Shown here: positions 5,043 to 50,628 of the stretch, piece by piece | Position numbering within the stretch: position 1 is the stretch's first letter | Layout: each line of letters opens with the position of its first letter | Source: Lophium mytilinum | Taxonomy: Eukaryota | DNA length: 64,000 bases | Direction of reading: 5' to 3' | Assembly: GCA_010093605.1 (NCBI GenBank) | Contig: MU004192.1 | Location: 1,693,464-1,757,463 of the forward strand | Translations under genes and position numbers: made by a program | The notes under the pieces: generated by a model | Told to the model about the DNA's origin: nothing | Databases searched by the model: none | What the model saw: only the letters and a program-made list of their open reading frames with translations

Positions 5043-7144
5043 TTACAACCTCGGAGTATCCTCAGCGTAATCCGTTACCGGCATCACAGTCTTGACATCA
5101 GTGTACGACATATAACCCGTGGTATCCCCGTTGTCCCGCTCTGCAACTGTGAATCCGCTTCCCAGGTATGACAGCGGCGCATCTTCTGGCAGCCAGGACT
5201 CGTAGTCGAAGTCTTCGTAGCGTGGGTTCTCCCAGCCGAAGTAGCCATGCATGGCGGAGCCGGGCCAGGAGGTGATGACGCGACCTTCGGGCTTGTTGCG
5301 CTTGAACCAGGTGAAGCACTGCATATAAACTTAGTAGGCTTCAGTAGATATTAGATGTGGGACACTAACGCTTTCAGACAGCACCGTGGTGCTCATGTGG
5401 TGATCAACTTGCTTTACCCATGCGTTGACTGCCTTTTGCCTGTGGTGTTGTGTCAGCAATGTTGAGCTATTCAACGCTAGGAGCTTGGTGGACGTACTTG
5501 ATGACCATCGATTTGATGTACTCGAGCTGTATCTTCTTGATGCACTTGATGATATACTTCGCAGCACCCTCGAACGTATGCACGATCGAACCAGCGAATG
5601 GCGCCGAGTTGGGTCCAAACATGATGAACAGATTCGGCATATCCGGTGCCGCGACTCCGAAGTATGCAACTGGATCGGGGTCCCAGGCTTGCTGTAGTGT
5701 GATGCCGTTTCGGCCGACGTAAGGAGTACTTCGGTTATCCATGTTCCTATGATCTTGTAAGCTTCCTTCCATGTCGACTTAACTGACACTGTAAATGGTG
5801 ACTTACTTATCGAACCCTGTCGCGCAAATGATTGCCTCGTACTCCCTCTCCACTCCGTCCGAGTCGATAAGGCCCTTCTCTGTGAACTCCTTTACAGCTT
5901 TTGGAATCAGATTCGCGTTCGGCTTGTTCAATGCCTCCAACCACGCCTGGCCCATAATAAGACGCCTACATCCTGGCGCATACTCCGGCATGAGCATATC
6001 AACGAGTTCGGGCTTATCTTTGCACGTCTGCCGCATGTTCTCCTTCAGCATCTCGCGAAATTGAGCGTTCATCTCCGTGCCTTTGAGCTGCACGGCTTGC
6101 ACCATGTTGCTCCATTGCTCTTGCTTCTTGCGGAAGGCGAGGTAAGCTTCGGGGTTGTTGCAGAAGAACTTGCGCTCCCATTTGGGGTGGTCGAAGTTCT
6201 TTTCTACGCCTCGCTCAGCCAGCTCCTGGAAGTTAGTACCTCCTCCCGGTGGCACCCAAACTTTTCCGCGGACGTAGTGGTCGAGATGTTTGACGATGGG
6301 TTGGATGGCGGGAGTGATCTGGACACCTGTGGATCTGCGGAGGCTGGATTAGCAAAAGTCAGACGTTGAGAGTGATACGGATATTTCTCACCCGTATCCA
6401 ACAACCGCAACGTTCTTTCCGGTAACATCGTAGCTGTCGTCCCAGTTGGCCGTATGCACCATATGACCCTTGAACTTCTCACGCCCGGGAACGTTTGGCC
6501 ATTCCCACGCGTTCACAAAGCCGGTGGCTTTGATGAGAATATCGGCCCAGTCAGTTTTAACCTGGGATGGCATATGTAATTAGCTTCTGCTTTAAGCTGT
6601 ATCCCATTATATGGATGTTACTTACAGTGCCGTCCTCTAGGTTCAAAACCTGGACCTCCCATTGGCCGATATCTGCGTGCCACTTTGCGGACTCGAACTT
6701 GTGGCCAAACTTTACATACTTGTAGACGTCGAATTGCTTAGAGACGTCGATGAGGTACTGCTCGAATTCCTTGCCGGGTGGGTAAAAACGCGACCAATTC
6801 GGGTTGCTAGCGAAAGTGTATTGGTATGTGTGCGGGGTAAGATCTGGCTGGACTCCGGGGTAGTGGTTCTCGAACCTTTAATCGTTAGATGGATTGTATG
6901 GGAAACGCAAACTTCTGCCATCATACCAAGTTCCTCCAACCTCCGAATTCTTCTCGTAGATCACCAAATCCAGATTCGGTATCGCTTGGGGGAACAGAGC
7001 TCCAACAGTAATACCGCACATTCCAGCACCAATGCAGATGACTTTCATACGTCGATAGTCATCCACGGGGCGGTACTGTGGGTCCGGGGGAAGTGGATTG
7101 GCGCCATCGGGCAACTGCATGGGGTTGTATGCTGGGACGGCCAT
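5043..7144 (-). CDS. Baeyer-Villiger / flavin-containing monooxygenase (multi-exon)
   Basis: N-terminal FAD motif VICIGAGMCG...EKNSEVGGTW, BVMO fingerprint FKGHMVHTANWD, second Rossmann VAVVGYG, PGCRRL, ICATGFD, MPNLFIMFGPN; several short GT-AG introns join the ORF fragments. Confidence 0.92.
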
Positions 7145-7860
7145 CTTGGAAATACTGGTCTTCTCTACCAGCTCTATCACGGATCCAAAGAGTGTTCGAA
7201 AAGCAGTTACAAAAATCAAAGAGGAATTGATTCAGCGAAATGCAGAAGCTACCCTTGCTTTAAAGGCGCGTCCGCAAGCTAGCTCCACCCGCCTTCACGT
7301 GCCTCCTCCACCACCGCATCCCAGATCCCGCTCGGCACAGCTAGGTTCAGGACCTTCGCCGCACCGCGGGTAGCTCCTCAGACCCAAGTGCGGAATGAAG
7401 GTGTTCATGATGCTCGACTGACCGCGGATCGCGTCCAACCGGTCAGCCGAGCCCGCAGCTCCAAGCGATGCGCTAGAGCTGTACCGGGCTCGGAATGCTC
7501 AGATGCCGATATAGAAACCATACATCCGGCGGGGCCCCAGGTTTATTTTTCTGAGAAGACGGGCCCGCACGCCAGAAGGTTAGCTGCTCAAGCGACGGGT
7601 GTGGCTGTAATCTAGATCGCAAACCGGGAATTAGATTTGAACTGTATGCCGAGTAGCCTACCTCCCGGACGGACCCTGCATGCTTCAGTCGCCGCGAACT
7701 CAGTGAATCGGATTTTTATTCCAGCGGTACGGAGCTGGGATCGCTTTTGGAAAGTGGTTCTTGGCTAGGACTCGAAATTCGAGCGGGCGGTTCTTTGCCC
7801 AGAGGTTTCACGGACACAGTTTAAACCACCCACCCCGGATCACGCCTCGGACTCTGGAGA

Positions 7861-9726
7861 ATGTCGCGCGATGCTGAAGAGAAGCCTTCCAAGGAGTTCA
7901 ACAGTGTTGCTTCCATTGCCTTGACGGAGGTGGAGAAACCGGCTTTGGATGATCCCGAGGGTCGAGAATTGGACATTGAGAAACAGGAGCCAAGAGAGAC
8001 TCTGGAAGAGAAGCAAGATGGCCCTGTCGAAGTGAACAACAACATCGTGGACTGGGATGGGGACAATGATCCAGAGAATCCACGGAATTGGTCGAAGGGG
8101 AAGAAGTTGCTGAATGTTGGGATCATTTCAGCATCGTCTCTTACTTCGTACGTTTACAGGACCACTACTGGTCTAAGCACCTCAATTACTGCCATGGCGA
8201 CTGACAACATACCTATCAAGTCCCCTAGCATCCTCCATGGTCGCGCCGGGTGTGAAGGCTCTCATGGCCGAGTTCCACAGTGACAGCAAATTATTATCAT
8301 CATTCACTGTTTCATGTTACATCCTAGGATTTGCCATGGGGCCCTTAGTGTAAGCTCCATATAATTTGCACGAGCTCTGCATTGATCACTTGATTGACTT
8401 TTCAAAGACTAGCTCCTCTATCAGAACTTTACGGAAGACGCAAGGTCTACTTGTTAGCATGGCTCATGTCATTTGGTTTTACTCTTGGTTGCGCCAAAGC
8501 TCCCTCACTTGGGGCATTTATCGTGTTTAGAGTGCTAGCAGGCTGCGGAGGTGTCGTCGCCCAGGTGAATGGAGGTGGAACTATAGTCGATGTATATGAC
8601 GTTCATCAACGAGGGGCCGCAATGTCTATCTTCGCTATGGGGCCTCTACTCGGTCCCGTGATAGGACCTATCGGGGGTGGATTTCTAGCTGAAGCGAAAG
8701 GATGGAGGTGAGATTCCTACCCCAGTCCTTCAAGATCCTGCTGACCAGTGGTTCATAGATGGGTGTTTTGGTTCCTAACTATCCTTTTCGGTGTATCAAC
8801 TGTCCTTGGCGCGCTGTTTCTACGCGAAACTTATGCTCCGACATTGCTCGAGAACAAGACGAAGCGGCTGATCAAAGAAACCGGCAATCGGAACCTCGAG
8901 TCCAAACTTGCCATCAAAAAGACGCCTAAAGATATCTTCTGGACCGCCATAAGGCGCCCAATGACGATGTTATTCCATGATCCTATTGTGGCTATTCTAT
9001 CAATGTACGTCTAATGAGCCCCTTTTGTGACATCCAATTTTCATTATATCATCTGACCATCTTTCTAGTTATATCGCAATCATCTTCGCGTTCTTATACC
9101 TCCTCTTCGCCACGTTCCCCACCGTCTTCGCGCAACAGTACCATTTCAACACCGGTATCCAAGGTCTCGCATACATCGGAATGGGCGTGGGTAATTTGGC
9201 CGGCGCCGTCTTGACAGCGTTCACAAGCGATCGGATATCCATTGCCCTAGCTAAGAAACACGGCGCGCCTAAGGCTGAGTTCCGACTCATCACGGTGATG
9301 ATGACGTGTTGGGCATGCCCTATCGGGCTGTTCTGGTACGGCTGGGCAACCGAGACAAAAGTCCATTGGATTGTTCCGATCATGGGGACCGCTCTCTTTG
9401 GGCTGGGGCTTTTTGGTACTATGGTGAGATTGTGTATTGATTCTCCAGATTCTCAAGAACTAATCACCTACATGCAGATGCCGATACAGACGTATTTGAT
9501 TGATTCGTACAAACGATACGCTGCGTCAGCTCTCGCGGCGTCAACGTTGCTTAGATCGCTGCTTGGCGCGCTCTTACCTCTCGCGGGACAAAATCTGTAT
9601 ATCAAGCTTGGGTATGGGTGGGGAAACTCCGTGCTGGGGTTTATTGGGGTTGCGATGCTGCCTTTCCCGTTTCTGTTCTATCGATACGGCGAGGCGATAA
9701 GAACTAGGTTCAAGAGGGAGTATTAA
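7861..9726 (+). CDS. MFS transporter, DHA1 (drug:H+ antiporter 1) type
   Basis: [65 protein letters not shown] motifs; hydrophobic helices across spliced exons. Confidence 0.93.
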
Positions 9727-10010: not shown

Positions 10011-11741
10011 CTAGTGTACCTGTGCATCGCCGGCCTTGTAGTAATGCAGGACCTGGAGATCGCAGTACGTTTTGATAGCCCCTGGTCCACCCTCAACACC
10101 GATACCACTTTCCTTGTGGCCGCCGAAGGGAATCTTGATGGAAACCTTCTCCATACTGTTAATGTGAACACTTCCAACATCCAGCTGCTTCGCGATTCGT
10201 GTGGCCTGCTCTAAGTCGTTGGACCAGACGCTGGCGCCCAATCCCATTTCCGAGTCGTTCGCAAGCTCAATCACCTCCTCTTCCGTCGACCAGGGCATAC
10301 TTGGCACAATCGGTCCCTATATCATATGTCAGCAATAAGACAAGTAAGGATATACTCGAAGACTTACAAATTGCTCCTCAGTGACGATCCTAGAATTGGC
10401 TGGAGGCTGATCCACGATGGTCGGCTCAAAGAAGAACCCCTTCTTGTCGATGACTGCCCCATTGCCAATCGTCTTATATCCGTGGGTCTTCGCGTCATCA
10501 AAGATGCTCTTGACTTTGTTATATTGCATCTCGTTCTGAACGGGACCAATGGTCACACCCTCTGCATCACTGGCTCCGACTTTGAAACTCCGCGCAGCCT
10601 TCGCTATGGCTTCGAGGAACTGTGGATAGATGTCTTCGTGAATGTAGATTCGCTTCGTTCCCGCGCACACTTGTCCCGTGTTGAAGAAAGCACCCAAGAT
10701 AACCTGAGGAGCGGCTTTCTCGATATCGACGTCTTTGCAGACGATCGTAGCGTCATTACCTCCACTGGCCTGTCATTAGCTATATGTTCCACCACAGGAT
10801 TTAAGGATATCTTACAGCTCAAGGGTGACTCTCTTCAGAGTCTTCGCCGCCGATTCCGCGATTTTCTTACCTGTCGCAACCGAACCAGCGAATGATATCT
10901 TTGCAATACCAGGGTGAGTAGTCAGGAGCGGGCCAAGGCTATCGTTCCCGTTCAGCACCGAAAGAACGCCTGGGGGCAGGATTCCCTGAGCAATCTCGAC
11001 TAGCTTCAAGGCTGAATAAGGCGAGAACGGCGAGGGTTTTACGATGACTGTGTTTCCAGCCATCAGACCAGGGAGGAACTTCATCGTTGCCTGTCCAAGA
11101 GGATCTGCAAGTTGTTTAGCCATTGACGACCACTTCGATTAAGATTTGATGTTAGGAAGTCGCATACAGTTCCAAGGGCATATAGCAGCCACCACGCCCA
11201 AGGGCTGATATCTCAGAACATATTCTCGGTCTTCGCCTTGGACTGTTTCGTCTTCAAGCCTCAAGTTTGCTGATTTGATTAGTTCGGAATCTTTAATCGA
11301 GAATTCCGGCCACATGGCAACTCACTGAAGAACTCAAAAGCTTCAGCACAGGCGTATTGTGCTTCATGGTGAGCGAATCCTTTCTGTCGTATATCGTGAG
11401 AAGTGCAACCTTTGAATGTTGGAAGTTTCACGAACCGGCTTGCCGATCTCCTTCATGACCAAATCTCCGAGGTCTCCAAGATATGGCTTGATGGCCTCTG
11501 CATATTTCTTCAAGAGAACCGATCTCTCATCCATGGCTGTTTTGCTCCATGATTTGAAGGCAGTCTTTGCGGCCTGGATCGTTTCCTCAATGTCCTCGGG
11601 GCTCGCGATGGGAACATCCCATAGATCCTGTTGAGTCGAGGGGTTGAAACCGTGCAGGAATTCCTTGCTGCTTCGCTTCTCGCCGTTGACGATGTTGTAG
11701 AACTGAGTGAAGTCAACGTCGGTCGTCCTCGCGGGTGCCAT
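10011..11741 (-). CDS. Aldehyde dehydrogenase
   Basis: ICPWN, KPSPFSP, FAGSVATGK, LEL/GG, catalytic Cys in NTGQVCAGTKR, EEQFGP, PFGGHKESGIG. Confidence 0.95.
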
Positions 11742-12367: not shown

Positions 12368-13350
12368 ATGGCCGATAGCTGGACTCATCTCGTGCGGTTC
12401 TACCACAATGGAATCCCTACCTTTGGTCACTTGGTCGATTCATATGATGGCGGAGACCTTCCGGATACATTCAAGGTGAAGGTCGCGACCGGTGATCCAG
12501 TGAATGCGACCATCAAGTACACTGGTGAAACCGTGGAAGTGGTGAAGGTGGATCTCCTCGCGCCGCTTGCGAACGTCCCCATTGTCATCAACGTTGGCCT
12601 GAACTACAGCGATCACATTGAAGAGTCGCAATTCCATCTTCCGGTATGAATTCTAGGTGCTATTGCACGTCTAACAATACTCATTCCTACCAGGATCTTG
12701 CCGCCCCAATTCCTTACATTTTCTACCGACCCACCGAGTCGCTCGCTGCGCCCTTCAAGGAGAACCACAGGGTGTACAAGGTGCAACAAGAATGTCTCGA
12801 CTACGAAGGCGAGATGGTGTTCCAAACCGACAGGTTTCCACTCAGGGATATCTCAGTTGAGGAAGCGTCGAAGCACATCATTGGTTTCACAGTCGGAAAC
12901 GATTTCTCTCCCCGTCCTGGCAAAGTGCTCGGCAAGATGAACTTCATCTACTCGAAAGCTTTTGATGACTGGACTCCAGCTGGGCCAGTGCTCGTGCACC
13001 CGAGCGTGGTTGGAGACCTGCCGCACCTTGATCTGAAAACAACCGTGAACGGAAAGGTGAAGCAGTCGAGCAACACCAAGAACATGATCTTCAATGTTGC
13101 CGAGATTCTATCGAACATGTCTGTTGGACATACTGTTGCTCCCGGAACTGTCGTTTTCTCTGGGTAAGATGTTCCACTGCGAGTACTGGTTGGTTGATTA
13201 CTGACTTCATACAGAACCTGCTCCGGTGGTGAATGGTTTGCGGCCCAGGGTAAGGGAGGTTACCAATCTGGATTGGTAGACGGAGATGTTGTTGAGGTCG
13301 AGGTTGCTAAGCTCGGCAAGATCCGCACTAGGGTCGTGCTCGACAAATAG
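12368..13350 (+). CDS. Fumarylacetoacetate hydrolase (FAH) family protein
   Basis: VGLNYSDH, LDYEGE, GFTVGNDFS, KAFDDWTPAGP, NMIFNVAEILS, GTVVFSG/T; two introns; stop TAG at 13348-13350. Confidence 0.92.
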
Positions 13351-18008: not shown

Positions 18009-18920
18009 ATGGCAGTCCCAGAGACAGTGCATGCAACAGAGGCAGTCCAGGGAGAAGGCACTCCTACTAAGTACGTTCCGAGGAAGACTGGCCGCGCTCC
18101 CTGCTTCTTCGTCTCTCACGGCGCTGGCCCCTTCGCCATCCTCAACGCGCCCTTCCAACTGCAGCTCGTCGACCTCTGCGAGAAGACCCGCTGGGTGCTG
18201 GATGGCTGGAAGGGCGTCATCCTCGTCACCGCGCACTGGGTAACCGACCAACCGCACATCTCATCCGGCCCCAAGCCGCACATCTACTACGACTACATCG
18301 ACGGCCTCGACGGCATTCCCCCAGAAGCGTGGGAGATCAAGTACGAAAGCCGCGGCGACACCGAGTGCGCGCATGAGATCAAGAAGCGACTCGACAAGCA
18401 GGGCTTCAACTGCGTGCTCGACGACGAGCGGGGCTGGGACCACGGCGTGTGGGTGCCGATGAAGCTGCTCCGCCCCGACGGCGACCTCCCCATCGTGCAG
18501 GTCAGCGTGCCGGGCAACATGGGCGAGAAGGAGACCCCCGAGGCCCTTAAGCTCGGCGCCGCGCTCGAGAGCTTCCGCGACGACGGCTGGGTTATCCTCG
18601 GCAGCGGTTCGAGCTACCATAACTTCGATGCTGTCATCCCCGCGATTATGGGCGTGCCGGGAGCGAAGGACGCGCCGGACAATAGGCCGTTTGAGGCGGC
18701 GTTGCAGAAGGTCGCGTTCACCGAGGATGTGGAGGAGAGGCGGAGGCTGATGCTCACGTGGCGGGATTGGTTCCCGGAACATGACGTTGTCCAGCCTCTA
18801 GGGAAGGCGGAGCATTTCATGCCGTTCATTGTGAATATTGGGGCGAGTGGTGGGGATAAGGGGGAGTTGTTGGGGACGTGGGATCTATTTGGGACAAAGA
18901 TGACGAGTTATGTTTGGTAG
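18009..18920 (+). CDS. Extradiol ring-cleavage dioxygenase, LigB/DODA class III family (intronless)
   Basis: FVSHGAGP, LVTAHW, RGWDHGVWVP, PIVQVS, ILGSGSSYHN, EHFMP metal-ligand motifs in a single 303-aa ORF. Confidence 0.93.
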   Translation: MAVPETVHATEAVQGEGTPTKYVPRKTGRAPCFFVSHGAGPFAILNAPFQLQLVDLCEKTRWVLDGWKGVILVTAHWVTDQPHISSGPKPHIYYDYIDGLDGIPPEAWEIKYESRGDTECAHEIKKRLDKQGFNCVLDDERGWDHGVWVPMKLLRPDGDLPIVQVSVPGNMGEKETPEALKLGAALESFRDDGWVILGSGSSYHNFDAVIPAIMGVPGAKDAPDNRPFEAALQKVAFTEDVEERRRLMLTWRDWFPEHDVVQPLGKAEHFMPFIVNIGASGGDKGELLGTWDLFGTKMTSYVW

Positions 18921-25379: not shown

Positions 25380-25663
25380 GTTTTGCGGCATGGGAACGCA
25401 GGCTTGGTGAGTGAGAGGGGGTCTGAGAAGAGAGTAGCAAAATAGCATACACTGTATGGACAGCTGCTCAGACCTTCTATCTGCTTCAGTTTCCTAGTAT
25501 TCCCAAATCAGTCCGACCATAGTACTTCGCTTTATAGCATCATTCGCGTTTCAGTTGAGGTCGTCGATTCGTAATGCAAGATGTATAAATAGATCAGAAG
25601 GTGCGCAAGTGAAGTTTCATAGACTATCTGCACAAATCCTAGCTACGACATGTCAAAGAAAGA

Positions 25664-34339: not shown

Positions 34340-34936
34340 ATGCCTAAGGATTACACGTATGCAGAGGTGTCAGATCACAACAGCCCTGGAGATGCGCTTC
34401 TAGTGATAGAAGGCAAGGTCTATGACATCTCAACCTTCGCCGAGGACCACCCGTATGGACATACCTCTCATACTCAATATCTCACACCAAAGACCCTTTG
34501 ATTCATTGTTCTCGTTCATGAAGCTTTCCTTTGGGATGTAGCTCTTTCTTTCAGTGCCCCGCATGCGCTTTTGGACTCACTAATAACGCGGTCTCCAGGG
34601 GCGGCGAACCTATCATCTTGGACCAAGCGGGATCGGATGCAACAGAGGCTTTCAGAGATGTAGGACACAGCGATGACGCAAGAGCGATTCTGCGTACTTT
34701 GTTAGTTGGAATTTTGAGGCGCACTGTAAGGATCACTACATTGCGAAATCCCAAATCAAGTCGGCTTGCTAATTCAATTTGGCGCTCAGGCCGGAGACTC
34801 AGCAGGAGGCGCTGCGACCGTTCAGAAGACAAAGCCAGCCAGCACCAAATCCAGCTCTCTTCTTGGAGGGCCCGCGATCGGTCTCATAGTGCTTGCGGTA
34901 ATCGGCATTCTATTAGCGCGAAAGTATCTGGCATAG
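34340..34936 (+). CDS. Cytochrome b5 with C-terminal membrane anchor (3 exons)
   Basis: [49 protein letters not shown] (both heme His ligands), tail [20 protein letters not shown]. Confidence 0.92.
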
Positions 34937-37565: not shown

Positions 37566-38140
37566 GAGCAATATGGTGTAGTCGTAGTCTTGTACAGAGG
37601 GTGGAGAGGCGATGGTAGCTTGATATCTCATTTCCTTTTGGACACTGGTTCACTTAGTGTAAAATCAGGCACGTGTTAGCACTTTAGGCTTTGTTAGATG
37701 CATCACAAGTGATTTTCAATCGCCTTCTTTTCTCCGGTCCGACTCCCGTGCAACCAAAGAAGCTGCCATTGGAGTCTGTCGATTTACAGCAATCCTACGC
37801 AAACCTATGAGAGAATGCATCATCCATTCACATGTTTGAGTTTTGATGTCTCCGCATGTGTGTAAGGAGATAGTCGTTCTCCAAATTATACCATCACACC
37901 ATTCTTTTACAAGCGGGCAATTCAGTCGGGGAATCGTGATGGGCAGCAAATTGAGTTCTTTGTTGTGGTACACCTCCTAACTTCAAAGACACTAAAAGCG
38001 AACAGTATCTAAGCTAATTGATTTCAAACGACTTCGAGGTCCGCTTCTATGAACAGCACCCCTACCGACAGGCAGCAAGCAAATGACCCCCATCGACTCG
38101 ACTCATGGTTCCGTATGCATTCTTTTCAAATTCGTAAAGC

Positions 38141-40120
38141 TCATCGCCACGTGTGGTCCAGATCAAGAGATACCTCAGGAGTCCTCGACTTATACAACAT
38201 GATCGCCTCCGGATTCGTCACATTCTCAAGGCCGTGTGCTCTGATTGGGGGTTGGCCTTGGTCTTCTGGAAATTTGAAGTCGTATTGCATTATGGCGAAT
38301 GCCAGAAGGATCTTGATCTCGTTGGATGCAAAGAAGCGTCCTGGGCAGGCATGCTTTCCATGTCCAAATGGCAGGTAATCGTCTCCAGTGGTCACGAATT
38401 GGTGCTTGCTCTCCTCGCCGGCTCGTTGCCGCATGTCATAGAACCGACGACCGTTGAATACTTGCGGGTTCTCGTAGAATTCTTCGTCGTAAAGTCGGGT
38501 GTTGGGGACAGTCAGCGCGGAGCCTTTGGGAATTATGGTACCGTCGGAGAGGGTGATGGTCTCATTCGCGATTCGATTCATCGTCACTGGAAAACAATTA
38601 GTAGTTGTAGTAACTGAGTTAAGAAATTCTCATACTGAATGATGCCGGATGCATGCGGTTACTCTCTTTCATAAAGCTGTCCATCATCTTGAGGCCATTG
38701 AGAGTCGTCTTATCCCAAGATTTCGCGGAGCCGAGCACCTCGATAAGCTCTTCTCTCAAAAGCTCTATTGAACCAGGGCTTCCAACGATGTTGTACATGC
38801 AGTTAGTGAATGTGATTGACGTGGTATGGACTGCTCCAAGGGAGTAATTGAGTTGCCTGTGGTTCCTCGATGTTAGCACAGTGTCCATTTTTTGATATAA
38901 CCATGAATGGTAATGAGAAGCCATACCCGTGAACGGCATTGCAAATATCCCCAGTCTTCTCGGTGACAGCGTCCATCCATGCGAATGCATCTGTGTACTT
39001 CTTAGGCTTCCGTCCGGCTTTGATATCCGCCTCACGCTCCTTCCGACGCGCAATAACAGTAGGCTCTATGATGCGACGAGCAGTTTCCACGTCTTCGCGT
39101 AGTTGCTTAGTTTGTGGCAAGAACCAATGGGCGATAGGTCGTAGAAGCGGAGGAATCGCTCTCATGACGTATCCTCCGTGTCCGAAATGCAGGGTGTACT
39201 CGACCGAAATGCGGAGCCATTCTTCGTTCTTAGCAAGCTCTGGTGGCATGAAGGTTTGAGCGGAAAGTCTTGCAATAAACCTAAGCGCTATAGCATTGAA
39301 CTTAACCGGGGTCCAGTCTGCGAAACTGTCAGCGTTCTCGTTCCTTTGTGAAACAGTTGACGGGAAATTTACCTTTCGCCGGGGGGAAAGCCTCGTCATA
39401 ACAATATTTAGCTTCCTCAGCTAGCGAGTGTACTACCGTTGCTGCGAAAAAAGTCAGACATAAGAAGTGCAATGCAGTGTCAAAGATTCGACGTACCAAG
39501 AGACTGTGTCAGGCCCATTCTCACGGAGTCAATGAAGACATTGTTGTCGACAGCCGGCCTACACCATCGTTAGGGCGAGGCGTACAAAAGCAGGTACATG
39601 CACTTACTTAAAACCTTCAAATCCAGGATAAGTTGTGAAGAAGTCCTATCGAGTCTGAGTAAGGCAGCTACATTTTTCAATTGAGGCATAATTACCCTCT
39701 TTAGCCAGCTCTTGAAAGTCATGCGCTCGTCCGTCCGGACCTCCGACGTCATATGCGGTGGGATGATGATGAGCGGCCCGTTCATACCAAATACCTGGAA
39801 AGGGTGCTTCCTCTGTAGTGGCACACCGTCAGTAGCCATTTTGAAAAGCTTTAGATCTGCTTGCTGGCTCATCTTACCGTACGGACGGCACTGTTCACGA
39901 TTTCTTTCGCGGATGACATCCATCGTTTCTTCGCTTCAGTGTAGTCCTTCTCGCCTTCCTGCTTGCCGATGAGGGGTATTCCAGTGATCGGTGTATTGTT
40001 CGAGTTTCCGAAAAAGTAGACAAATGTCCCCAGTAGTACGGCGGTAGTAATGACGAGAACTCCGACGCCCCCCAGAAGACCAAAGGGGCCCAGCGAAAGG
40101 CTGTTGCTAGAGGAGGCCAT
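38141..40120 (-). CDS. Cytochrome P450, ent-kaurene-oxidase/CYP68-like group
   Basis: N-terminal TM anchor, I-helix LGAVHTT, ExxR in MKESNR, FNGRRF, heme motif FGHGKHACPGRFFA. Family assignment is by resemblance only. Confidence 0.93.
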
Positions 40121-42712: not shown

Positions 42713-44417
42713 ATGGGGTTCCTAGACGATTTCACGTCCCTCAAATTCGCGAGTCCCGCAGGACTGGTGCTCGCGCCCACTCTAGCATTCCTTCTCGTGA
42801 GAATATTTCCAGATGCTCCACCAATTTCAACATGAAAATTACTAACCAGCCGTCACAAGATCGCGGGCTACTACATCAGCGCCGGGCTGTACAACATCAC
42901 CTTCCACCCTCTGGCCAAGTACCCAGGTCCCAAAAGCTACGCTTTCACTCGTCTCACATGGTCCATTGACGTTCTCTCCGGAAAATCATGCTTCCGCCTC
43001 GCCGCCCTCCACAACAAATACGGCGATACCGTCCGCATCGGCCCGAATGAGCTCTCCTACACCAACTCGCGCGTCTGGAAAGACGTCTTCGGCTCCCAAC
43101 CAGGTGGCAAGCCACAAATGCAAAAAGACCCTCTCCACTACCAAAAACATGACAAGACCCCCTCCTTGCACGTGTCTAGTGACGCGGATCATACGCGCAT
43201 GCGAAGATTGATAGCCCACGCTTTCTCTGATAAGGCTCTGCGCGACCAGGAATACATCATGCAGGATTACTCGAGTTTGCTGATCAGCCGGTTACGGGAG
43301 GTGAGTGCGGGCGGAACAACAGTGAATATCCGTCAATGGTACCACTGGGCGCTTTTCGACCTCTTTGGGGATCTGTGCTACTGTGAGCCTTTTGGGTGCT
43401 TGCGGGACGGGAAGAGCCATCCATGGGTTGATATCATCGGGCAGTCGATCCAGGCGTTTATGTATATCGGCCTTGCACGACGGATTCCAGGACTGCAGAA
43501 GCTGATGATGAAGATGATGCCAAAGAAGAAGATTGAGCAAGCAGCGTGGCACACGAAGTTCAGCAGCGATTTGGCGGATAAGCGCATGGCGATGCAGACG
43601 GACCGACCAGATTTCATGAGCTTTTTGCTTAAGTATAACGATGAGAAGGGCTTGTCGATTCCAGAGATTCGCTCGAACTCGAATGTGCTTATTCCGGGTG
43701 GAAGCGAGACCACGGGGACGTTTTTGGCTGGAGCGACGTGGCATCTGTTAAAGAATCCAGACAAGATGAAAAAGCTTGTGAACGAGGTTCGGGGAGCCTT
43801 TGCTACTCAGGAGGAGATTACAGTCGTCAAGCTGAACCAGCTGAAATATCTCACCGCCGTCATCGAAGAAGGCCTGCGGGTGTATCCTCCAGTGCCCTCG
43901 AACATGCCTCGAATGATTCCACCGGAAGGCGCAACAGTGTGTGGGAAATGGGTACCTGGCGGTGTAAGTGGACTGACTTTCTATTTGAAACTCCCATACT
44001 TACAATCCATTCTCAGACTTCCGTTGCCGTGGCGCCATGGCCCATGTTCACGAGCGCAGCAAATTTCTCCGACCCGACCTCCTTCATCCCCGAGCGATGG
44101 CTGGGAGATCCGCTCTACACGCATGATGACAGGGCTGCGTTCCAGCCTTTCTCGTCGGGCCCCAGGAACTGCATCGGAAAGAAGTAAAGTTATCCCTTTA
44201 GCACATGAACGGCAAATTCTAACATTTCGGTAGTCTTGCATATGCGGAGATGCGCATGGTCATGGCAAAGATGGTATGGAACTTCGACCTTGTACTACAG
44301 CCGGAAAGCGAGAACTGGTTCCCACACGAGATGGTCGTCGTATGGAACATACCGCCTCTTCATATCAAGCTCATCCCAGTGGTTCGCGAACCTACGAATC
44401 GCGTTACAGAATCGTGA
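42713..44417 (+). CDS. Cytochrome P450, CYP65/Tri11-like group
   Basis: FHPLAKYPGP, YGDTVRIGPNELS, I-helix PGGSETT, EEGLRVYPP, PERW, heme motif FSSGPRNCIGK; three introns. Confidence 0.93.
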
Positions 44418-49103: not shown

Positions 49104-49309
49104 TTTGTGTCCTCTGCCACTGCGGGGAGCGGCAAGTTCGTGCAACAATGCAGTATTTGCGACTGCAACGTGGCATGTGTCTTTCCAGCTGCCAAGTAGC
49201 GTTCATTGGTATTATAGTCAAGCGCACAGTTCAGCCTTGTCGGGGTAAGGCAAGAGTTTGTGGGGGCCAAAAGCCCCACCCTCTCCTGAAACACGATAAA
49301 CCCCCTCCA

Positions 49310-50628
49310 CTAACCCAAAATCATGCCCGCTCCCCTGAACTTCTCGAAAGCGCCGAACCATGCCTCGTTCGGGTCTTTCTCTTCCTCAAATCCTGCCTTT
49401 CTGCACTTCTCCAAGCTCATTTGCCTGTCGAAGTCGAGATAAAAGCCATACGAATCTAAGAATTCCGCTTTCCACACGAGAACACCCATTCCCTTCTCTT
49501 TTAGCACTTTCTCGTGCTTCTGGACATATTTGCTGGGCAATAGAGACGCTTCATCAGACTCAGGAGCCGGGCCAATTCCCATAAGCCCGAACCAGGACGC
49601 GATCTTAGGCCATCGGTCTCGCATGCTTTCTGCTCTTGCACTATCTGCAACGTTGAAAAGCTGACCAGCTGATACCTCGGGGTGGAGCGAGGCCCAAATG
49701 GCGAGGCGGGCGATGGTAGAAGAGGATGCTTCGTTGAGGAGCGAGTTGTATGCGTTTTCGGTGCCGGGAAAAGCAACACTAGAGCCGGCACCTTCGACAT
49801 TGGCGTAGAGTGAGAGGTAGGTGGCCCAGTGGGCGGTCAGGTTATAGGTGGAGCCTGTTGGAGCAAATCCGATCTGTGATACAAAGGGTTAGTCATGGTC
49901 CGGGTTGGAGGAGTGGCAATGCTCACAACTGCGTCAGGACGAACGTCGCACCACGTCCATTTCTTACCTTCACTTTTCTCGGTAAGAATATTCTGGAACT
50001 CGGCGTAATGAACGCTGCTATCATTAGAACTGGGAAGGACCATATCCTCGGTGTACGGAGTTTTGAATGGTTTGGTTTCGAGGTGGATGCCGTAGCCCTA
50101 CTTCATCAGAACCTGGTTTTCCAGCTATCTCAGAACCGACAACGTACTTTCGTGCCGCTAGGAACCACGACGAAGCTCAGTTCTGGAGAAAGCTTTGTCA
50201 ATGCTCCTATTGCCCGCTCGAGCATTTTCGCATTTGCTTCTATTTCGATTTTCGGATTATCATCCTGCTTGTAAGCTGGCAATGTCAGCAGCGTCATATT
50301 TAACACGTTGAAGCCCCTCACCGAAGTAGTACACGTGCGTCACTGTCTCTATTCCGGCCACTTGCTCCCTCAACACCTCAGTAAATTCCTCCACAGTGCC
50401 AGACGCAAGATTAATCCCGGAAAGGAGCTGAAGTTCCGGCCGGGACGGATCTGGAGTTGGCCAGTACGAGTTCTCAATGCTAAGTGGTCGATTGACCAGA
50501 GCTGTTACCTTGGAAAAGGTGTTATCACCAGGGTAACCTTTCACGAGCTCATCGACGAGAGCCCAGCCAATCAGTCCGGAAGCGCCGAAGACTAGGGCGT
50601 GCGCACCGGAAGTTCTGGAGGTTGACAT
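49310..50628 (-). CDS. PRISE family (progesterone 5-beta-reductase/iridoid synthase-like; SirQ-like) reductase
   Basis: ALVFGASGLIG, VTHVYYF, PSGTK|GYG, WTWCDVRPDAV; three short introns. Confidence 0.82.

What the first reader, a model, noticed from the sequence alone, without database searches (positions are those of the whole stretch)
5043..50628. Backbone-less oxidative cluster resembling a fungal steroid/terpenoid ring-catabolism pathway
Seen: about 19 contiguous enzyme/transporter genes, many in divergent pairs (BVMO/MFS, ALDH/FAH, SnoaL/SDR, KstD-like/MDR, SDR/MFS, P450/P450), with no PKS, NRPS, terpene cyclase or prenyltransferase. Known: bacterial steroid degradation uses SDR hydroxysteroid dehydrogenases, NTF2-fold ketosteroid isomerase, KstD, hydroxylases, BVMO plus esterase and extradiol ring cleavage; the Pseudomonas dit (abietane resin acid) cluster uses a P450, SDRs, an extradiol dioxygenase and FAH-family proteins. 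Inference: this locus assembles functional analogues of such a route in a fungus (uptake, hydroxylation, dehydrogenation/aromatisation, lactonisation, ring opening). I know of no characterised fungal cluster with this full set. The substrate cannot be read from sequence.
Basis: partly seen in the sequence, partly recalled or inferred. Interest (0 to 1): 0.85.

Follow-up and report, generated by a model that had tools for sequence, protein, structure and literature searches.

The report
Conserved fungal ring-opening enzyme gene cluster
About seventeen neighbouring enzyme and transporter genes in a conifer-dwelling fungus are kept together in several distant fungi and probably break open ring-shaped terpenoid- or steroid-like compounds, using one key enzyme gene that came from bacteria.

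Summary
Window 5043-50628 carries 20 genes: 17 enzymes, redox partners or transporters and 3 others. No scaffold synthase domain was found in 280 ORFs scanned.

The KstD-like protein is 100% identical to a Lophium mytilinum protein.

The KstD-like flavoprotein and the LigB/DODA-type dioxygenase lie 2-7 genes apart in seven other fungal species of three classes. An NTF2-fold gene, the same BVMO, an SDR, a P450 and an FAH-family gene join them elsewhere.

Contigs of one public run, from a ~95% identical relative, skip nine introns here. They cover at least eight of the genes.

The fungal KstD-like genes form one clade nested in Sphingomonadales-like bacteria.

Best reading (0.5): a catabolic or detoxifying route of hydroxylation, oxidation, ring desaturation or aromatisation, extradiol cleavage and Baeyer-Villiger lactone opening. 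The substrate (steroid, resin diterpenoid or other cyclic ketone) is not shown, and co-induction is untested. Membership of eight outer genes and of PRISE is unproven.

I found no description in print.

The parts
5043..7144 (-). Type I Baeyer-Villiger monooxygenase (BVMO-1), about 586 aa, multi-exon
   Evidence: Weak Pfam NAD_binding_8/Thi4 hits on one exon. Model. Both BVMO fingerprints and two Rossmann motifs are present; the motif definitions are from a passage of PMC9836352. A 93% identical 585-aa protein, P0263, carries the same motifs. Orthologues lie 4-7 locus tags from LigB in Exophiala xenobiotica and Cladophialophora psammophila.
7861..9726 (+). MFS transporter, divergent from BVMO-1
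   Evidence: Pfam MFS_1 on two exons. Model. Linkage in other fungi was not tested.
10011..11741 (-). Aldehyde dehydrogenase, about 476 aa
   Evidence: Pfam Aldedh on four exons covering profile positions 6-459. NCBIfam gives many similar-scoring semialdehyde dehydrogenase models and none stands out. Linkage elsewhere was not tested.
12368..13350 (+). FAH-family protein (Rv2993c-like N-terminus plus FAA_hydrolase), 293 aa
   Evidence: Pfam. The best NCBIfam model is the HpaG C-terminal isomerase/decarboxylase, sub-threshold on one exon. A 58-67% identical homologue, split by two gaps that look like introns, lies next to a KstD-like gene on metagenome contig L089.
14897..16887 (+). Type-B carboxylesterase; 5' end uncertain, possibly from 14400
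   Evidence: Pfam COesterase on three exons and a weak fourth. Model. Linkage elsewhere was not tested.
18009..18920 (+). LigB-family (class III) extradiol dioxygenase of the DODA/YgiD type, single exon, 303 aa
   Evidence: Pfam LigB, 73.7 bits against a cut-off of 26.3. Best solved relatives are 4,5-DOPA dioxygenases (E 2.3e-29) and YgiD. It lies near KstD-like genes in seven other fungal species. Contigs of run X1 cover 17909-18699.
19247..21312 (-). F-box-like protein of unknown role, embedded in the cluster; 5' end uncertain
   Evidence: The window ORFs have no Pfam hit. The Lepidopterella palustris protein P0424 (OCK82592.1, 904 aa, F-box-like at residues 252-292) aligns at 49-58% to 21312-19262 and, in its first 142 residues, to the NTF2 gene. 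It is a fused model of both neighbours and sits next to LigB OCK82593.1.
22119..22746 (-). NTF2-fold (SnoaL/KSI-like) protein, 154 aa, three coding exons (introns 22481-22551 and 22161-22250)
   Evidence: Both introns are skipped by a contig of run X1. Corrected model. The window exons gave no Pfam hit. Of 22 homologues, 4 have sub-threshold SnoaL_2 hits. The model of homologue P0428 has pLDDT 95.6; its top structural matches are SdnG, a KSI-like-fold protein, LinA and LEH. The gene is adjacent to LigB in L. palustris, and three unnamed contigs share their length with LigB-bearing contigs.
24369..25379 (+). Short-chain dehydrogenase (SDR-1); 5' exons uncertain
   Evidence: Pfam adh_short on ORFs 24488-24703 and 24864-25376. 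Model.
25664..27380 (-). KstD-family FAD-dependent desaturase, 554 aa, one 52-nt intron (26555-26606)
   Evidence: Pfam FAD_binding_2. It equals P0001, 100% identical, named by NCBI as a Lophium mytilinum protein. Best solved relatives are KstD 7p18, 4c3x and 8jbz. The best NCBIfam model is KstD PRK12844 at 300.8 bits, below its cut-off of 789; ChcC1 scores 279.8. The intron is skipped in X1. The fungal clade is nested in bacteria.
27986..29140 (+). Medium-chain dehydrogenase/reductase (quinone-oxidoreductase-like), single exon, 384 aa
   Evidence: Pfam ADH_N and ADH_zinc_N. NCBIfam PIG3 quinone oxidoreductase subfamily, 140.9 bits, below its cut-off. X1 contigs cover 27877-29119.
29384..30250 (-). 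Short-chain dehydrogenase (SDR-2), 266 aa
   Evidence: Pfam adh_short on both exons. A 54% identical homologue lies on L089 beside a P450 and a KstD-like gene.
31176..33380 (+). MFS transporter (TRI12-like), divergent from SDR-2
   Evidence: Pfam MFS_1 and TRI12. Intron 33199-33250 is skipped in X1.
34340..34936 (+). Small tail-anchored cytochrome b5
   Evidence: Pfam Cyt-b5 on two exons. Intron 34453-34598 is skipped in X1.
35604..37623 (+). Second type I BVMO (BVMO-2); 3' end uncertain
   Evidence: Pfam FMO-like and NAD_binding_8. Both BVMO fingerprints lie inside single exons. Three predicted introns are skipped in X1 and a fourth nearly matches.
38141..40120 (-). Cytochrome P450
   Evidence: Pfam p450. 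Model. A 46% identical homologue (residues 82-506) lies beside the KstD-like gene on L089.
42713..44417 (+). Cytochrome P450, divergent from the former across a 2.6-kb stretch with no recognisable gene
   Evidence: Pfam p450. The model is cut back here to the in-frame stop at 44415-44417. Linkage elsewhere was not tested.
49310..50628 (-). PRISE-family (progesterone 5-beta-reductase / iridoid synthase-like) enone reductase; possible peripheral member only
   Evidence: Pfam PRISE on two exons. It is separated from the cluster by a HET gene (45974-48567) and a Mit_KHE1 gene (48526-49103). There is no linkage evidence.

Best explanation
Window 5.0-44.4 kb is a real, evolutionarily conserved metabolic gene cluster without a scaffold synthase. 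The organism is Lophium mytilinum, by the NCBI name of the identical protein.

The conserved core has three genes: a KstD-family flavin desaturase of bacterial ancestry, a DODA/YgiD-type LigB extradiol dioxygenase, and an NTF2-fold protein. In other fungi the same BVMO, SDR, P450 and FAH-family genes travel with this core.

The most likely function is catabolism or detoxification of a cyclic, hydrophobic ketone or alcohol. Candidates are a steroid, a conifer diterpenoid or resin acid, or another alicyclic or hydroaromatic compound. Every step below is inferred from family chemistry:
1. MFS transport.
2. Hydroxylation by the two P450s, helped by b5.
3. Oxidation of ring hydroxyls to ketones by the SDRs and the MDR, with the NTF2-fold protein acting as isomerase, dehydratase or hydrolase.
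4. Alpha,beta-desaturation by the KstD-like enzyme, up to aromatisation of the ring to a phenol or catechol.
5. Extradiol cleavage by LigB.
6. Oxidation of the semialdehyde by ALDH, then C-C hydrolysis, decarboxylation or isomerisation by the FAH-family protein.
7. In parallel, oxygen insertion next to other ring or side-chain ketones by the two BVMOs, and lactone or ester opening by the carboxylesterase.

Shown: gene identities, conserved linkage of seven genes, spliced transcripts in a close relative, and the bacterial affinity of the desaturase.

Inferred: the order of steps, the catabolic rather than biosynthetic direction, and the substrate class.
For: Identity of the parts.

Conserved linkage of KstD-like and LigB:
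- The two hit lists share 8 contig lengths: 96,842; 7,809; 22,448; 80,862; 316,722; 1,991,248; 3,162,851; 3,752,523.
- Accessions or locus tags are 2-7 apart in:
  - Mytilinidion resinicola: KAF2808129 and ..133; a second pair KAF2810609 and ..612.
  - Lepidopterella palustris: OCK82588 and OCK82593.
  - Talaromyces proteolyticus: KAH8701509 and ..516.
  - Capronia epimyces: A1O3_04159 and 04161.
  - Claussenomyces sp.: M1818_006547 and 006550.
  - Exophiala xenobiotica: LTR99_001743 and 001745.
  - Cladophialophora psammophila: A1O5_09965 and 09967.

BVMO-1 orthologues:
- E. xenobiotica LTR99_001750, with the same spacing in strains H2202, LTS15 and LTR67.
- C. psammophila A1O5_09404, four tags from LigB 09408.
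- A paralogous set in the same genome: KAF2501131..138..140 and ..143.

The NTF2 and F-box genes sit next to LigB in L. palustris (OCK82592 and OCK82593).

Metagenome contig L089 (7,895 bp) is fungal, since its FAH hit is split by intron-like gaps. It carries SDR-2-like (54%), P450-like (46%), KstD-like (61%) and FAH-like (58-67%) genes side by side.

Expression: 28 contig pieces of run X1, 90-99% identical, skip 9 intron-like stretches. Seven of these are introns I had predicted. The pieces lie on LigB, NTF2, KstD-like, MDR, SDR-2, MFS, b5 and BVMO-2.

Catabolic flavour:
- LigB, ALDH and an FAH family member is the enzyme trio of bacterial homoprotocatechuate meta-cleavage (established knowledge). 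The FAH exon's best NCBIfam model is HpaG.
- The desaturase scores nearly as well against aromatising ChcC1 and ChcC2 desaturases as against KstD.
- In the 24 nearest bacterial and metagenome loci, the homologue sits with SDRs (18 of 24), a P450 (15 of 24), TonB-dependent receptors (7), luciferase-like monooxygenases (7), APH/EcKL kinases (8) and SnoaL_2 proteins (6). Several of these loci are only 2-4 kb long.

Habitat: mytilinidioid fungi live on wood, bark and resin of gymnosperms (passage of PMC2816966).
Against: - No induction data exist. No run on record as RNA was listed, and only one run with spliced contigs of a relative could be laid.
- No transcription factor gene lies in the cluster.
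- DODA-type LigB enzymes are also known from secondary metabolism (statement in PMC12420386). The closest structural relative of the NTF2-fold protein is a biosynthetic enzyme, SdnG of the sordarin pathway. A backbone-less fungal steroid-tailoring cluster with BVMO, esterase and dehydrogenase exists (PMC5943271).
- Eight outer genes have no linkage evidence beyond the sister species: both MFS, ALDH, carboxylesterase, SDR-1, MDR, b5/BVMO-2 and P450 42713-44417.
- BVMO-1 had no close homologue listed from Capronia epimyces cluster 1, Claussenomyces or T. proteolyticus, so the gene set varies between species.
- The KstD-like enzyme is below all equivalog cut-offs. One of four KstD catalytic positions is Phe in 3 of 18 family members.
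- No LigB or NTF2 homologue lies near the bacterial homologues: 0 of 80 loci at E<=1e-8 and 0 of 35 at E<=1e-6. The bacterial context therefore says nothing about ring cleavage.
- The shared promoter word TGCGGGG is only modestly enriched and is absent from the intergenic DNA of L089.
Confidence: 0.5

Rival explanations
1. It is a backbone-less biosynthetic (tailoring) cluster. The enzymes remodel a primary-metabolism sterol, or the product of an unlinked synthase, into a seco- or lactone-type natural product. This would resemble the demethoxyviridin vid cluster, which works on a sterol without its own cyclase.
For: - The vid cluster has 19 genes, with P450s, a BVMO, an esterase, dehydrogenases and MFS transporters; its gene table lists no cyclase (passages of PMC5943271).
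- DODA-type LigB enzymes are known from secondary metabolism (PMC12420386).
- The top structural match of the NTF2-fold protein is SdnG of sordarin biosynthesis.
- Patchy distribution and possible cluster transfer between fungi are typical of biosynthetic clusters.
Against: - No synthase, methyltransferase, acyltransferase or cluster-specific Zn2Cys6 regulator is present among 280 scanned ORFs.
- ALDH and an FAH-family enzyme beside an extradiol dioxygenase fit downstream catabolism better.
- The nearest bacterial homologues of the desaturase sit in loci with TonB-dependent receptors, P450s and SDRs.
- The host fungi are resin, wood and hydrocarbon dwellers. This is partly recalled and partly.
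Confidence: 0.2
2. Only a small core is a functional unit. That core is LigB, NTF2, KstD-like, with BVMO-1, SDR-2, P450 38141-40120 and FAH. The rest of the 45 kb is an island of unrelated accessory redox and transport genes that lie together without sharing a pathway.
For: - Linkage outside the sister species was found only for those seven genes and the F-box gene.
- The gene set differs between species. BVMO-1 has no close homologue listed from three of the species that keep KstD-like and LigB together. L089 packs four of the genes into 7.9 kb.
- Unrelated genes (F-box-like, HET, KHE1) sit among or beside the enzymes.
Against: - The conserved genes are spread from 5.0 to 40.1 kb, so the intervening genes lie inside the conserved span.
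- Spliced contigs of one run cover MDR, MFS 31176-33380, b5 and BVMO-2 as well as core genes.
- The word TGCGGGG occurs in 8 of 11 promoter stretches across the whole span; 2 of 60 shuffles reach 8.
- My protein searches were capped at three, so absence of evidence for the outer genes reflects untested, not failed, linkage.
Confidence: 0.25
3. The cluster is catabolic, but its substrate is not a steroid or polycyclic terpenoid. It would act on a monocyclic or hydroaromatic compound such as cyclohexanone- or tetralone-type ketones, aryl ketones, alkylphenols or oxidised PAHs. The compound is aromatised by the desaturase, or converted by BVMO plus esterase, to a catechol that LigB cleaves.
For: - The desaturase scores 279.8 and 226.7 bits against the aromatising 4-oxocyclohexanecarboxylate desaturases ChcC1 and ChcC2, close to its 300.8 bits against KstD.
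- Several hosts of the cluster are hydrocarbon-associated black yeasts: Exophiala xenobiotica and Cladophialophora psammophila (names; ecology recalled).
- BVMO plus hydrolase plus meta-cleavage is the route for 9,10-anthraquinone in Sphingobium sp. AntQ-1 (passages of PMC9836352). That genome also carries a 60% identical homologue of the desaturase.
Against: - The best solved relatives are steroid and cholestenone desaturases.
- Two P450s with b5, two or three SDRs, an NTF2-fold protein and a nearby PRISE enone reductase are more than a monocyclic substrate needs.
- The AntQ-1 paper does not mention this gene: the words 'ketosteroid' and 'oxosteroid' occur 0 times.
Confidence: 0.2

Closest known systems
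Bacterial 9,10-seco steroid catabolic clusters (Rhodococcus, Mycobacterium, Comamonas: KstD, KshAB, HsaAB, HsaC, HsaD)
   Same: Both have a KstD-family desaturase, SDR-type hydroxysteroid dehydrogenases, an NTF2/KSI-fold protein, and extradiol cleavage of a ring made aromatic by desaturation plus hydroxylation. The logic of opening a carbocycle by first making it a catechol is shared. The pathway itself is established knowledge; the list of eight key enzymes is from PMC4810484.
   Different: - No Rieske KshA and no VOC-type HsaC; a LigB/DODA-type dioxygenase stands in their place.
- No MCP hydrolase of the HsaD type and no CoA-dependent side-chain genes.
- Hydroxylation would be done by microsomal P450s and b5.
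- The desaturase is below the KstD equivalog cut-offs.
- An HMM survey of RefSeq genomes reported 'No putative steroid-degrading fungi' (PMC4810484).
Demethoxyviridin (vid) cluster of Nodulisporium sp., a fungal steroid-modifying cluster without its own cyclase
   Same: Both are synthase-less fungal clusters of P450s, a type I BVMO, an esterase, dehydrogenases and MFS transporters. In vid, BVMO plus esterase plus dehydrogenase remove a pregnane side chain (passages of PMC5943271).
   Different: The vid gene table has six P450s, Bet v1-like proteins and a glyoxalase-like enzyme, and lists no KstD-like, LigB, ALDH or FAH genes. It is biosynthetic. Homology between the vid proteins and the window's proteins was not tested because their sequences were not at hand.
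Homoprotocatechuate meta-cleavage pathway (HpaD/HpcB, HpaE, HpaG) of E. coli and relatives
   Same: Both have a LigB-superfamily extradiol dioxygenase, a semialdehyde dehydrogenase and an FAH-family isomerase/decarboxylase. The FAH exon's best NCBIfam model is the HpaG C-terminal domain, and HpaE is among the ALDH matches. The pathway composition is established knowledge, recalled.
   Different: All matches are far below the equivalog cut-offs. The dioxygenase is of the DODA/YgiD type, not HpaD. No hydratase or aldolase genes are present.
Aromatising desaturases ChcC1 and ChcC2 of the cyclohexanecarboxylate pathway, and other KstD-family cyclic-ketone desaturases
   Same: They belong to the same flavoprotein family and perform stepwise alpha,beta-desaturation of a cyclic ketone to a phenol. 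This is the step I propose here (NCBIfam names and scores).
   Different: The scores are 279.8 and 226.7 bits against cut-offs of 1000 and 900. The fungal clade's nearest relatives are uncharacterised Sphingomonadales-like proteins.
Grosmannia clavigera monoterpene (limonene) utilisation genes
   Same: This is a conifer-associated ascomycete that uses BVMOs and other oxidative enzymes to use or detoxify host terpenoids. [quoted passage not shown]
   Different: The substrates are monoterpenes. That these genes form a large induced cluster is my recollection of Wang et al. 2014, which is not held. No KstD-like or LigB genes are known to me there. Homology was not tested.
Pseudomonas and Burkholderia dit cluster for abietane resin acids
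   Same: It has a P450, SDRs, an extradiol dioxygenase and FAH-family proteins acting on a conifer diterpenoid. The host fungi of the present cluster live on conifer bark and resin.
   Different: dit uses a Rieske ring-hydroxylating dioxygenase and CoA-dependent steps. The window has no Rieske or CoA-ligase domain. Homology was not tested.

Membership tests
3-ketosteroid delta-1-dehydrogenase (KstD) | FAD_binding_2 flavoprotein with overall sequence likeness to solved KstDs | tested here: met
   P0001 against PDB: 7p18 E 3.5e-42, and 4c3x, 8jbz and 8joj E ~2e-40. These rank ahead of fumarate reductases and urocanate reductase.
3-ketosteroid delta-1-dehydrogenase (KstD) | Catalytic Tyr119, Tyr318, Tyr487 and Gly491 (Rhodococcus erythropolis KstD1 numbering, recalled from the literature) | tested here: inconclusive
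   Positions were mapped on the printed alignments using the chain offsets.
- Tyr119 aligns with Tyr120, which is invariant in 18 of 18 family members.
- Gly491 aligns with Gly524, also invariant.
- Tyr318 lies one column from the invariant Tyr350.
- Tyr487 lies one column from residue 521, which is Tyr in 15 and Phe in 3 of 18.
3-ketosteroid delta-1-dehydrogenase (KstD) | Score above NCBIfam's curated equivalog cut-off | tested here: not met
   PRK12844 scores 300.8 bits against 789. PRK07843 scores 269.8 against 788. PRK12845 scores 226.2 against 793. ChcC1 scores 279.8 against 1000. The protein is a separate subfamily of the KstD-like desaturases.
3-ketosteroid delta-1-dehydrogenase (KstD) | Desaturation of 3-ketosteroids | not testable with these tools
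   This needs an enzyme assay.
Type I Baeyer-Villiger monooxygenase | Two Rossmann motifs GxGxx[G/A] flanking the fingerprints [A/G]GxWxxxx[F/Y]P[G/M]xxxD and FxGxxxHxxxW[P/D] (definition from a passage of PMC9836352) | tested here: met
   Both models carry all four motifs.
- BVMO-1: GGTWFENHYPGVQPD and FKGHMVHTANWD. The first motif spans a predicted intron but is identical in the 93% identical protein P0263.
- BVMO-2: GGVWLTNTYPGCACD and FTGEEWHTGSWP, each inside one exon.
LigB / class III extradiol dioxygenase, DODA-YgiD type | LigB domain above Pfam's cut-off and likeness to solved 4,5-DOPA dioxygenases | tested here: met
   Pfam PF02900 scores 73.7 bits against 26.3. PDB 8in2 E 2.3e-29, 29ky E 4.3e-25, YgiD 2pw6 E 5.4e-13. 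The NCBIfam 4,5-DOPA-extradiol-dioxygenase model scores 71.6 bits, below its equivalog cut-off of 233.
LigB / class III extradiol dioxygenase, DODA-YgiD type | Metal-binding and catalytic histidines | not tested
   I did not map them.
NTF2-like superfamily (SnoaL / ketosteroid isomerase fold) | Alpha+beta cone fold | tested here: met
P0428 is 49-52% identical to the two exons. Its model has pLDDT 95.6. Foldseek gave probability 1.00 to SdnG, the KSI-like-fold protein 4h3u, LinA, LEH and PhzA/B.
NTF2-like superfamily (SnoaL / ketosteroid isomerase fold) | Pfam SnoaL-type domain above cut-off; KSI catalytic Tyr/Asp residues | tested here: not met
   The window exons gave no family at E<=0.05. 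Of 22 homologues, 4 hit SnoaL_2 at 17-21 bits against a cut-off of 27. The KSI catalytic residues were not examined.
Bacterial 9,10-seco steroid degradation pathway | [quoted passage not shown] | tested here: not met
   None of the 280 scanned ORFs of the window has a Rieske, VOC-type dioxygenase or MCP-hydrolase domain. This lowers the claim 'is a member', not the claim 'works like'.
Fungal secondary-metabolite biosynthetic gene cluster | Core scaffold enzyme (PKS, NRPS, terpene synthase/cyclase, prenyltransferase) in the cluster | tested here: not met
   None was found in the window. DNA outside the 64 kb could not be read.
Fungal catabolic gene cluster | Linkage of the genes conserved across species | tested here: met
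   Linkage was found for KstD-like, LigB, NTF2, BVMO-1, SDR-2, P450 38141-40120 and FAH. The other genes were not tested.
Fungal catabolic gene cluster | Joint induction by the substrate, and growth on it or turnover of it | not testable with these tools
   Only presence of spliced contigs in one run of a relative could be shown.

The most novel reading that the evidence does not exclude
Ascomycetes of at least three classes carry a mobile family of gene clusters that was seeded by the transfer of a Sphingomonadales-type KstD-like desaturase gene into fungi. The family gives them a bacterial-style 'desaturate, aromatise and meta-cleave' route, with Baeyer-Villiger lactone opening, for mineralising the carbocyclic nucleus of steroids or conifer diterpenoids. 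A genome survey did not find this capacity in fungi (PMC4810484). Fungal enzymes for it are uncharacterised.
Probability: 0.25. Interest if true: 0.85.

Novelty: new variant of a known kind. Interest (0 to 1): 0.66.

Why it matters
- Degradation of the steroid nucleus and of resin acids is textbook bacterial chemistry. A survey of 8,277 genomes found no fungal candidates (PMC4810484).
- LigB-type extradiol cleavage in fungi is called insufficiently characterised (PMC12420386).
- A conserved fungal cluster that joins a bacterial-derived KstD-like desaturase to a DODA-type dioxygenase, BVMOs and P450s gives a concrete, testable locus for how wood-, resin- and hydrocarbon-dwelling ascomycetes open carbocyclic rings.
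- It also offers new desaturases, BVMOs and ring-cleaving enzymes for steroid and terpenoid biotransformation.
- It is a case study of an inter-domain gene recruited into a eukaryotic cluster that then spread between fungal classes.

Tried and rejected
- **Whole genome and earlier findings.** Neither was available, so the flanks beyond the window and genome-wide chance of such a grouping could not be examined.
- **Spliced protein models as typed letters to Pfam.** I went on with unbroken exon references and stored proteins, so no window multi-exon protein other than the KstD-like one (stored as P0001) was analysed at full length.
- **The search for related loci with the single protein P0001 in bacterial genomes.** No relative was found. 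The alignment query was needed.
- **tblastn of all window models against 80 bacterial loci and 35 metagenome loci.** Apart from L089, only generic SDR, ALDH, BVMO, MDR, FAH and carboxylesterase hits of 23-36% appeared. There were no LigB or NTF2 hits. The idea that a whole bacterial operon was transferred is rejected.
- **Sequencing runs.** No RNA holder was listed.
- **Laid contigs.** They left 22812-25467 (SDR-1 and its promoter), 30780-31443, 32108-32771, 33436-34099 and 34764-35427 without cover. Run X2 gave only three short partial pieces. None of this says anything about expression.
- **Shared promoter motif.**
  - TGCGGGG contains a CreA-type SYGGRG core; that consensus is recalled.
  - It occurs in 8 of 11 cluster promoter stretches; 2 of 60 shuffles reach 8.
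  - It occurs 16 times in the window against 7.7 expected; 1 of 100 shuffles reaches 16.
  - It occurs 8 times in 9.36 kb of cluster promoters against 1 in 11.66 kb of other intergenic DNA, whereas the looser SYGGRG is not enriched: 6.1 against 5.1 per kb.
  - It is absent from the intergenic DNA of L089.
  - I treat it as a weak hint, not as evidence of co-regulation.
- **CGG-Nx-CCG dyads.** Nothing stood out.
- **The 2.6-kb gap at 40121-42712 and other gaps.** No Pfam hit, and only low-scoring models.
- **Literature.** Nine searches found no description of this cluster. The library holds open-access papers only. Wang et al. 2014 (PMC4148792) is not held.

Full report
**What is in the window**

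The 64-kb window is eukaryotic, with short GT..AG introns. I scanned 149 stop-to-stop ORFs of at least 100 aa against Pfam. I then scanned 131 more: 114 ORFs of 55-99 aa in the gaps of the finding, plus 17 longer ORFs again at a laxer threshold. I built gene models with a small splice-aware finder trained on the Pfam-positive ORFs.

Between 5043 and 50628 there are 20 genes:
- a type I BVMO
- an MFS transporter
- an aldehyde dehydrogenase
- an FAH-family protein
- a type-B carboxylesterase
- a LigB-family dioxygenase
- a gene without a Pfam domain, later shown to be F-box-like
- a small gene later shown to have an NTF2 fold
- an SDR
- a FAD_binding_2 flavoprotein
- an MDR
- a second SDR
- a TRI12-like MFS transporter
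- a cytochrome b5
- a second BVMO
- two P450s
- a HET-domain gene
- a Mit_KHE1 gene
- a PRISE-family reductase

All six divergent pairs exist. No PKS, NRPS, terpene synthase, prenyltransferase, Rieske or Zn2Cys6 domain was found.

The count is 17 enzyme, redox-partner or transporter genes rather than 19. Three non-enzyme genes interrupt or end the run.

**Organism**

The C-terminal exon of the flavoprotein found a 554-aa protein that is 100% identical. NCBI names it as from Lophium mytilinum, on a 1,829,034-bp contig. Mytilinidioid fungi live on wood, bark, resin and cones of gymnosperms (passage of PMC2816966).

**The key enzymes**

*Flavoprotein.* Its best solved relatives are 3-ketosteroid dehydrogenases:
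- 7p18, E 3.5e-42
- 4c3x, 8jbz and 8joj, E about 2e-40

Of the four catalytic positions of Rhodococcus KstD1 (recalled):
- Tyr119 aligns with a residue that is invariant in the family.
- Gly491 also aligns with an invariant residue.
- Tyr318 lies one column from an invariant Tyr.
- Tyr487 lies one column from a position that is Tyr in 15 and Phe in 3 of 18 family members.

NCBIfam puts the protein far below every equivalog cut-off:
- KstD PRK12844: 300.8 bits against 789.
- ChcC1, an aromatising 4-oxocyclohexanecarboxylate desaturase: 279.8 bits.
- ChcC2: 226.7 bits.

It is therefore a separate subfamily of KstD-like cyclic-ketone desaturases, not a demonstrated KstD.

*Dioxygenase.* It is of the DODA/YgiD type.

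*Flavin monooxygenases.* Both carry the two type I BVMO fingerprints and two Rossmann motifs (motif definition from PMC9836352).

*The small gene at 22119-22746.* Its exons gave no Pfam hit. A search of 1.84 billion representatives with its 76-aa exon found 78 relatives. Four of the 22 relatives scanned have sub-threshold SnoaL_2 hits. A homologue folds with pLDDT 95.6 into an NTF2-like cone. The nearest solved structures are SdnG, a KSI-like-fold protein, LinA and limonene epoxide hydrolase.

**Is the linkage conserved?**

*KstD-like and LigB.* The two hit lists share eight contig lengths. Accessions or locus tags are 2-7 apart in:

| Species | KstD-like | LigB |
|---|---|---|
| Mytilinidion resinicola (sister species, 94-95% identical) | KAF2808133 | KAF2808129 |
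| Lepidopterella palustris | OCK82588 | OCK82593 |
| Talaromyces proteolyticus | KAH8701509 | KAH8701516 |
| Capronia epimyces | A1O3_04159 | A1O3_04161 |
| Claussenomyces sp. | M1818_006547 | M1818_006550 |
| Exophiala xenobiotica | LTR99_001745 | LTR99_001743 |
| Cladophialophora psammophila | A1O5_09967 | A1O5_09965 |

. These species belong to Dothideomycetes, Eurotiomycetes and Leotiomycetes (class names recalled).

*BVMO-1.*
- The E. xenobiotica orthologue is LTR99_001750, with the same spacing in three further strains.
- In C. psammophila it is four tags from a LigB gene (A1O5_09404 and 09408).
- In L. palustris it sits on a separate 16-kb contig, which says nothing either way.
- No close BVMO-1 homologue was listed from Capronia cluster 1, Claussenomyces or T. 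proteolyticus. The gene set therefore varies between species.

*NTF2 and F-box genes.* L. palustris OCK82592 is a fused gene model of the NTF2 and F-box genes. It lies next to LigB OCK82593. Three unnamed contigs (15,057, 2,222 and 7,761 bp) match in length between NTF2 and LigB hits.

*SDR-2, P450 and FAH.* A 7,895-bp metagenome contig, L089, is fungal by the intron-like gaps in its FAH hit. It carries homologues of SDR-2 (54%), P450 38141-40120 (46%), the desaturase (61%) and FAH (58-67%) side by side.

Seven genes spread from 5.0 to 40.1 kb of the window are therefore linked elsewhere. That sequential accessions and locus tags follow gene order is an assumption.

**A second copy**

The same genome has a paralogous set on another contig: KAF2501131 KstD-like..138 BVMO..140 KstD-like..143 LigB.

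The BVMO of this set is 84% identical to Capronia epimyces A1O3_06671. Its LigB is 85% identical to A1O3_06675. The window's own genes are about 63-64% identical to their Capronia counterparts. This suggests transfer of that cluster between fungal classes. I did not test it by phylogeny.

**Expression**

No run on record as RNA was listed. One coded run, X1, could still be laid.
- It yielded 28 contig pieces that are 90-99% identical to the window.
- The pieces skip nine intron-like stretches. Seven are introns I had predicted and one is close.
- The ninth revealed an extra intron, which corrected the NTF2 gene model.
- The pieces lie on LigB, NTF2, the desaturase, MDR, SDR-2, MFS 31176-33380, b5 and BVMO-2.

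Spliced transcripts of at least eight cluster genes therefore exist together in one sample of a close relative. Levels and induction cannot be read from contigs.

**Bacterial affinity of the desaturase**

Beyond Lepidopterella (75%), the best hits to the fungal exon include many metagenome and bacterial proteins at 56-68%. Examples are Sphingobium sp. AntQ-1, a Roseobacteraceae member and gammaproteobacteria. Most fungal homologues score no higher, at 54-68%.

*Trees.*
- In a FastTree of 65 sequences the fungal sequences form one clade with support 91.
- In an IQ-TREE quick search of 41 sequences they form one clade with support 92.
- In both, the fungal clade is nested within a Sphingomonadales-like group, inside a wider proteobacterial radiation.
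- This fits one ancient transfer into fungi followed by duplication.
- The rows were chosen by me from the hits, and the support values are SH-like only.

*Context.* In the 24 nearest bacterial and metagenome loci the gene sits with:
- SDRs: 18 of 24
- a P450, usually adjacent: 15 of 24
- APH/EcKL kinases: 8
- TonB-dependent receptors: 7
- luciferase-like monooxygenases: 7
- SnoaL_2 proteins: 6
- GSTs: 5

Several of these loci are only 2-4 kb long.

None has a LigB or NTF2 homologue of the fungal genes. The fungal cluster was therefore assembled in fungi around an imported desaturase.

**Mechanism**

The family chemistry supports a route of this order:
- uptake;
- P450 and b5 hydroxylation;
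- SDR and MDR oxidation;
- desaturation or aromatisation by the KstD-like enzyme;
- extradiol cleavage by LigB;
- ALDH and FAH-family processing;
- alongside these, two BVMOs and a carboxylesterase opening other ketones as lactones or esters.

This is the logic of bacterial 9,10-seco steroid degradation and of aromatising cyclohexanecarboxylate catabolism. The lower part resembles homoprotocatechuate meta-cleavage.

The cluster is not a member of the bacterial steroid pathway: KshA-, HsaC- and HsaD-type genes are absent.

The steps are inferred. So is the direction, catabolic rather than biosynthetic, and so is the substrate. The hosts' habitats (conifer bark and resin, wood, hydrocarbon-rich sites) point to terpenoid, steroid or hydroaromatic rings. 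That evidence is circumstantial.

**Weak or negative results**

- The word TGCGGGG is enriched in the cluster's promoters. Paired copies lie upstream of LigB and of the KstD-like/MDR pair. The looser CreA-type consensus is not enriched, and the word is missing from the intergenic DNA of L089.
- No regulator gene lies in the cluster.
- The HET, KHE1 and PRISE genes at the right end have no support as members.

**Literature**

- An HMM survey found 'No putative steroid-degrading fungi' (PMC4810484, passages).
- Fungal LigB-type dioxygenases are described as insufficiently characterised and known from secondary metabolism (PMC12420386, passages).
- The demethoxyviridin cluster is the nearest described synthase-less fungal steroid cluster (PMC5943271, passages).
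- The Sphingobium AntQ-1 paper describes BVMO plus hydrolase plus meta-cleavage for anthraquinone but does not mention the desaturase homologue (PMC9836352, passages).
- Six searches aimed at this cluster or organism found no description. Supplements were not consulted.

**Verdict**

This is a real, conserved, synthase-less oxidative cluster. It is most likely catabolic, with a bacterial-derived KstD-like desaturase and a DODA-type ring-cleaving dioxygenase at its core. The steroid or terpenoid substrate and the unity of the whole 45 kb remain open.

Noticed in passing
window 25664-27380 (-); loci L001-L003, L081-L111: The KstD-like gene looks like an inter-domain acquisition. Fungal homologues form one clade (support 91 and 92) nested in Sphingomonadales-like bacteria. 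They are 56-68% identical to bacterial and metagenome proteins, and fungal homologues outside the closest relatives (M. resinicola, L. palustris) score in the same range. The window copy has gained one 52-nt intron. The L089 copy has none.
   Followed up: partly
not in the window: Lophium mytilinum contig of 2,850,822 bp (proteins P0070, P0271, P0243, P0249): The same genome has a second, paralogous cluster: KstD-like, BVMO, KstD-like and LigB within 13 accession numbers. Its BVMO is 84% and its LigB 85% identical to the neighbouring genes A1O3_06671 and A1O3_06675 of Capronia epimyces, a fungus of a different class. This suggests transfer of the cluster between fungi.
   Followed up: partly
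window 19247-21312 (-): An F-box-like gene with no Pfam hit of its own sits between LigB and the NTF2 gene. It is kept there in Lepidopterella palustris, where it is annotated fused to the NTF2 gene (OCK82592.1, 904 aa). Its role in an enzyme cluster is unexplained.
   Followed up: partly
window 17452-17458 and 27624-27630 (- strand), and 8 other promoter sites: TGCGGGGTAAT, followed 4 bases later by GCGGGGA, occurs upstream of both LigB and the KstD-like/MDR pair. TGCGGGG is found in 8 of 11 cluster promoter stretches. It contains a CreA-like GCGGGG core (consensus recalled). It is not found in the intergenic DNA of L089.
   Followed up: partly
window 152-2812 (+) and 51500-53921 (+): Two ankyrin-repeat genes with visibly similar N-terminal and C-terminal sequences flank the region on either side, according to my models. 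They may be paralogues marking a duplicated or inserted block.
   Followed up: no
window 40121-42712: A 2.6-kb stretch between the two divergent P450 genes has no Pfam hit and only a low-scoring gene model. It includes a 221-aa ORF at 41603-42265 (-).
   Followed up: no
window 49310-50628 (-): A PRISE-family (progesterone 5-beta-reductase / iridoid synthase-like) enone reductase lies 5 kb beyond the last P450, behind a HET gene and a Mit_KHE1 gene. This is suggestive for a steroid or enone reading, but there is no linkage evidence.
   Followed up: no
proteins P0122-P0165, P0250-P0260 and others: Dozens of LigB, KstD-like and BVMO homologues at 55-93% identity come from JGI or Logan contigs of only about 0.9-2.5 kb. 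That is the size of single transcripts. They may be environmental metatranscripts of this cluster family. I did not check the nature of those records.
   Followed up: no
window 55757-57273 (+) and 60403-63266 (-): A class-III aminotransferase and a two-finger C2H2 zinc-finger protein lie to the right of the finding. The C2H2 gene is the only DNA-binding protein seen in the window, and it is 16 kb from the last P450.
   Followed up: no
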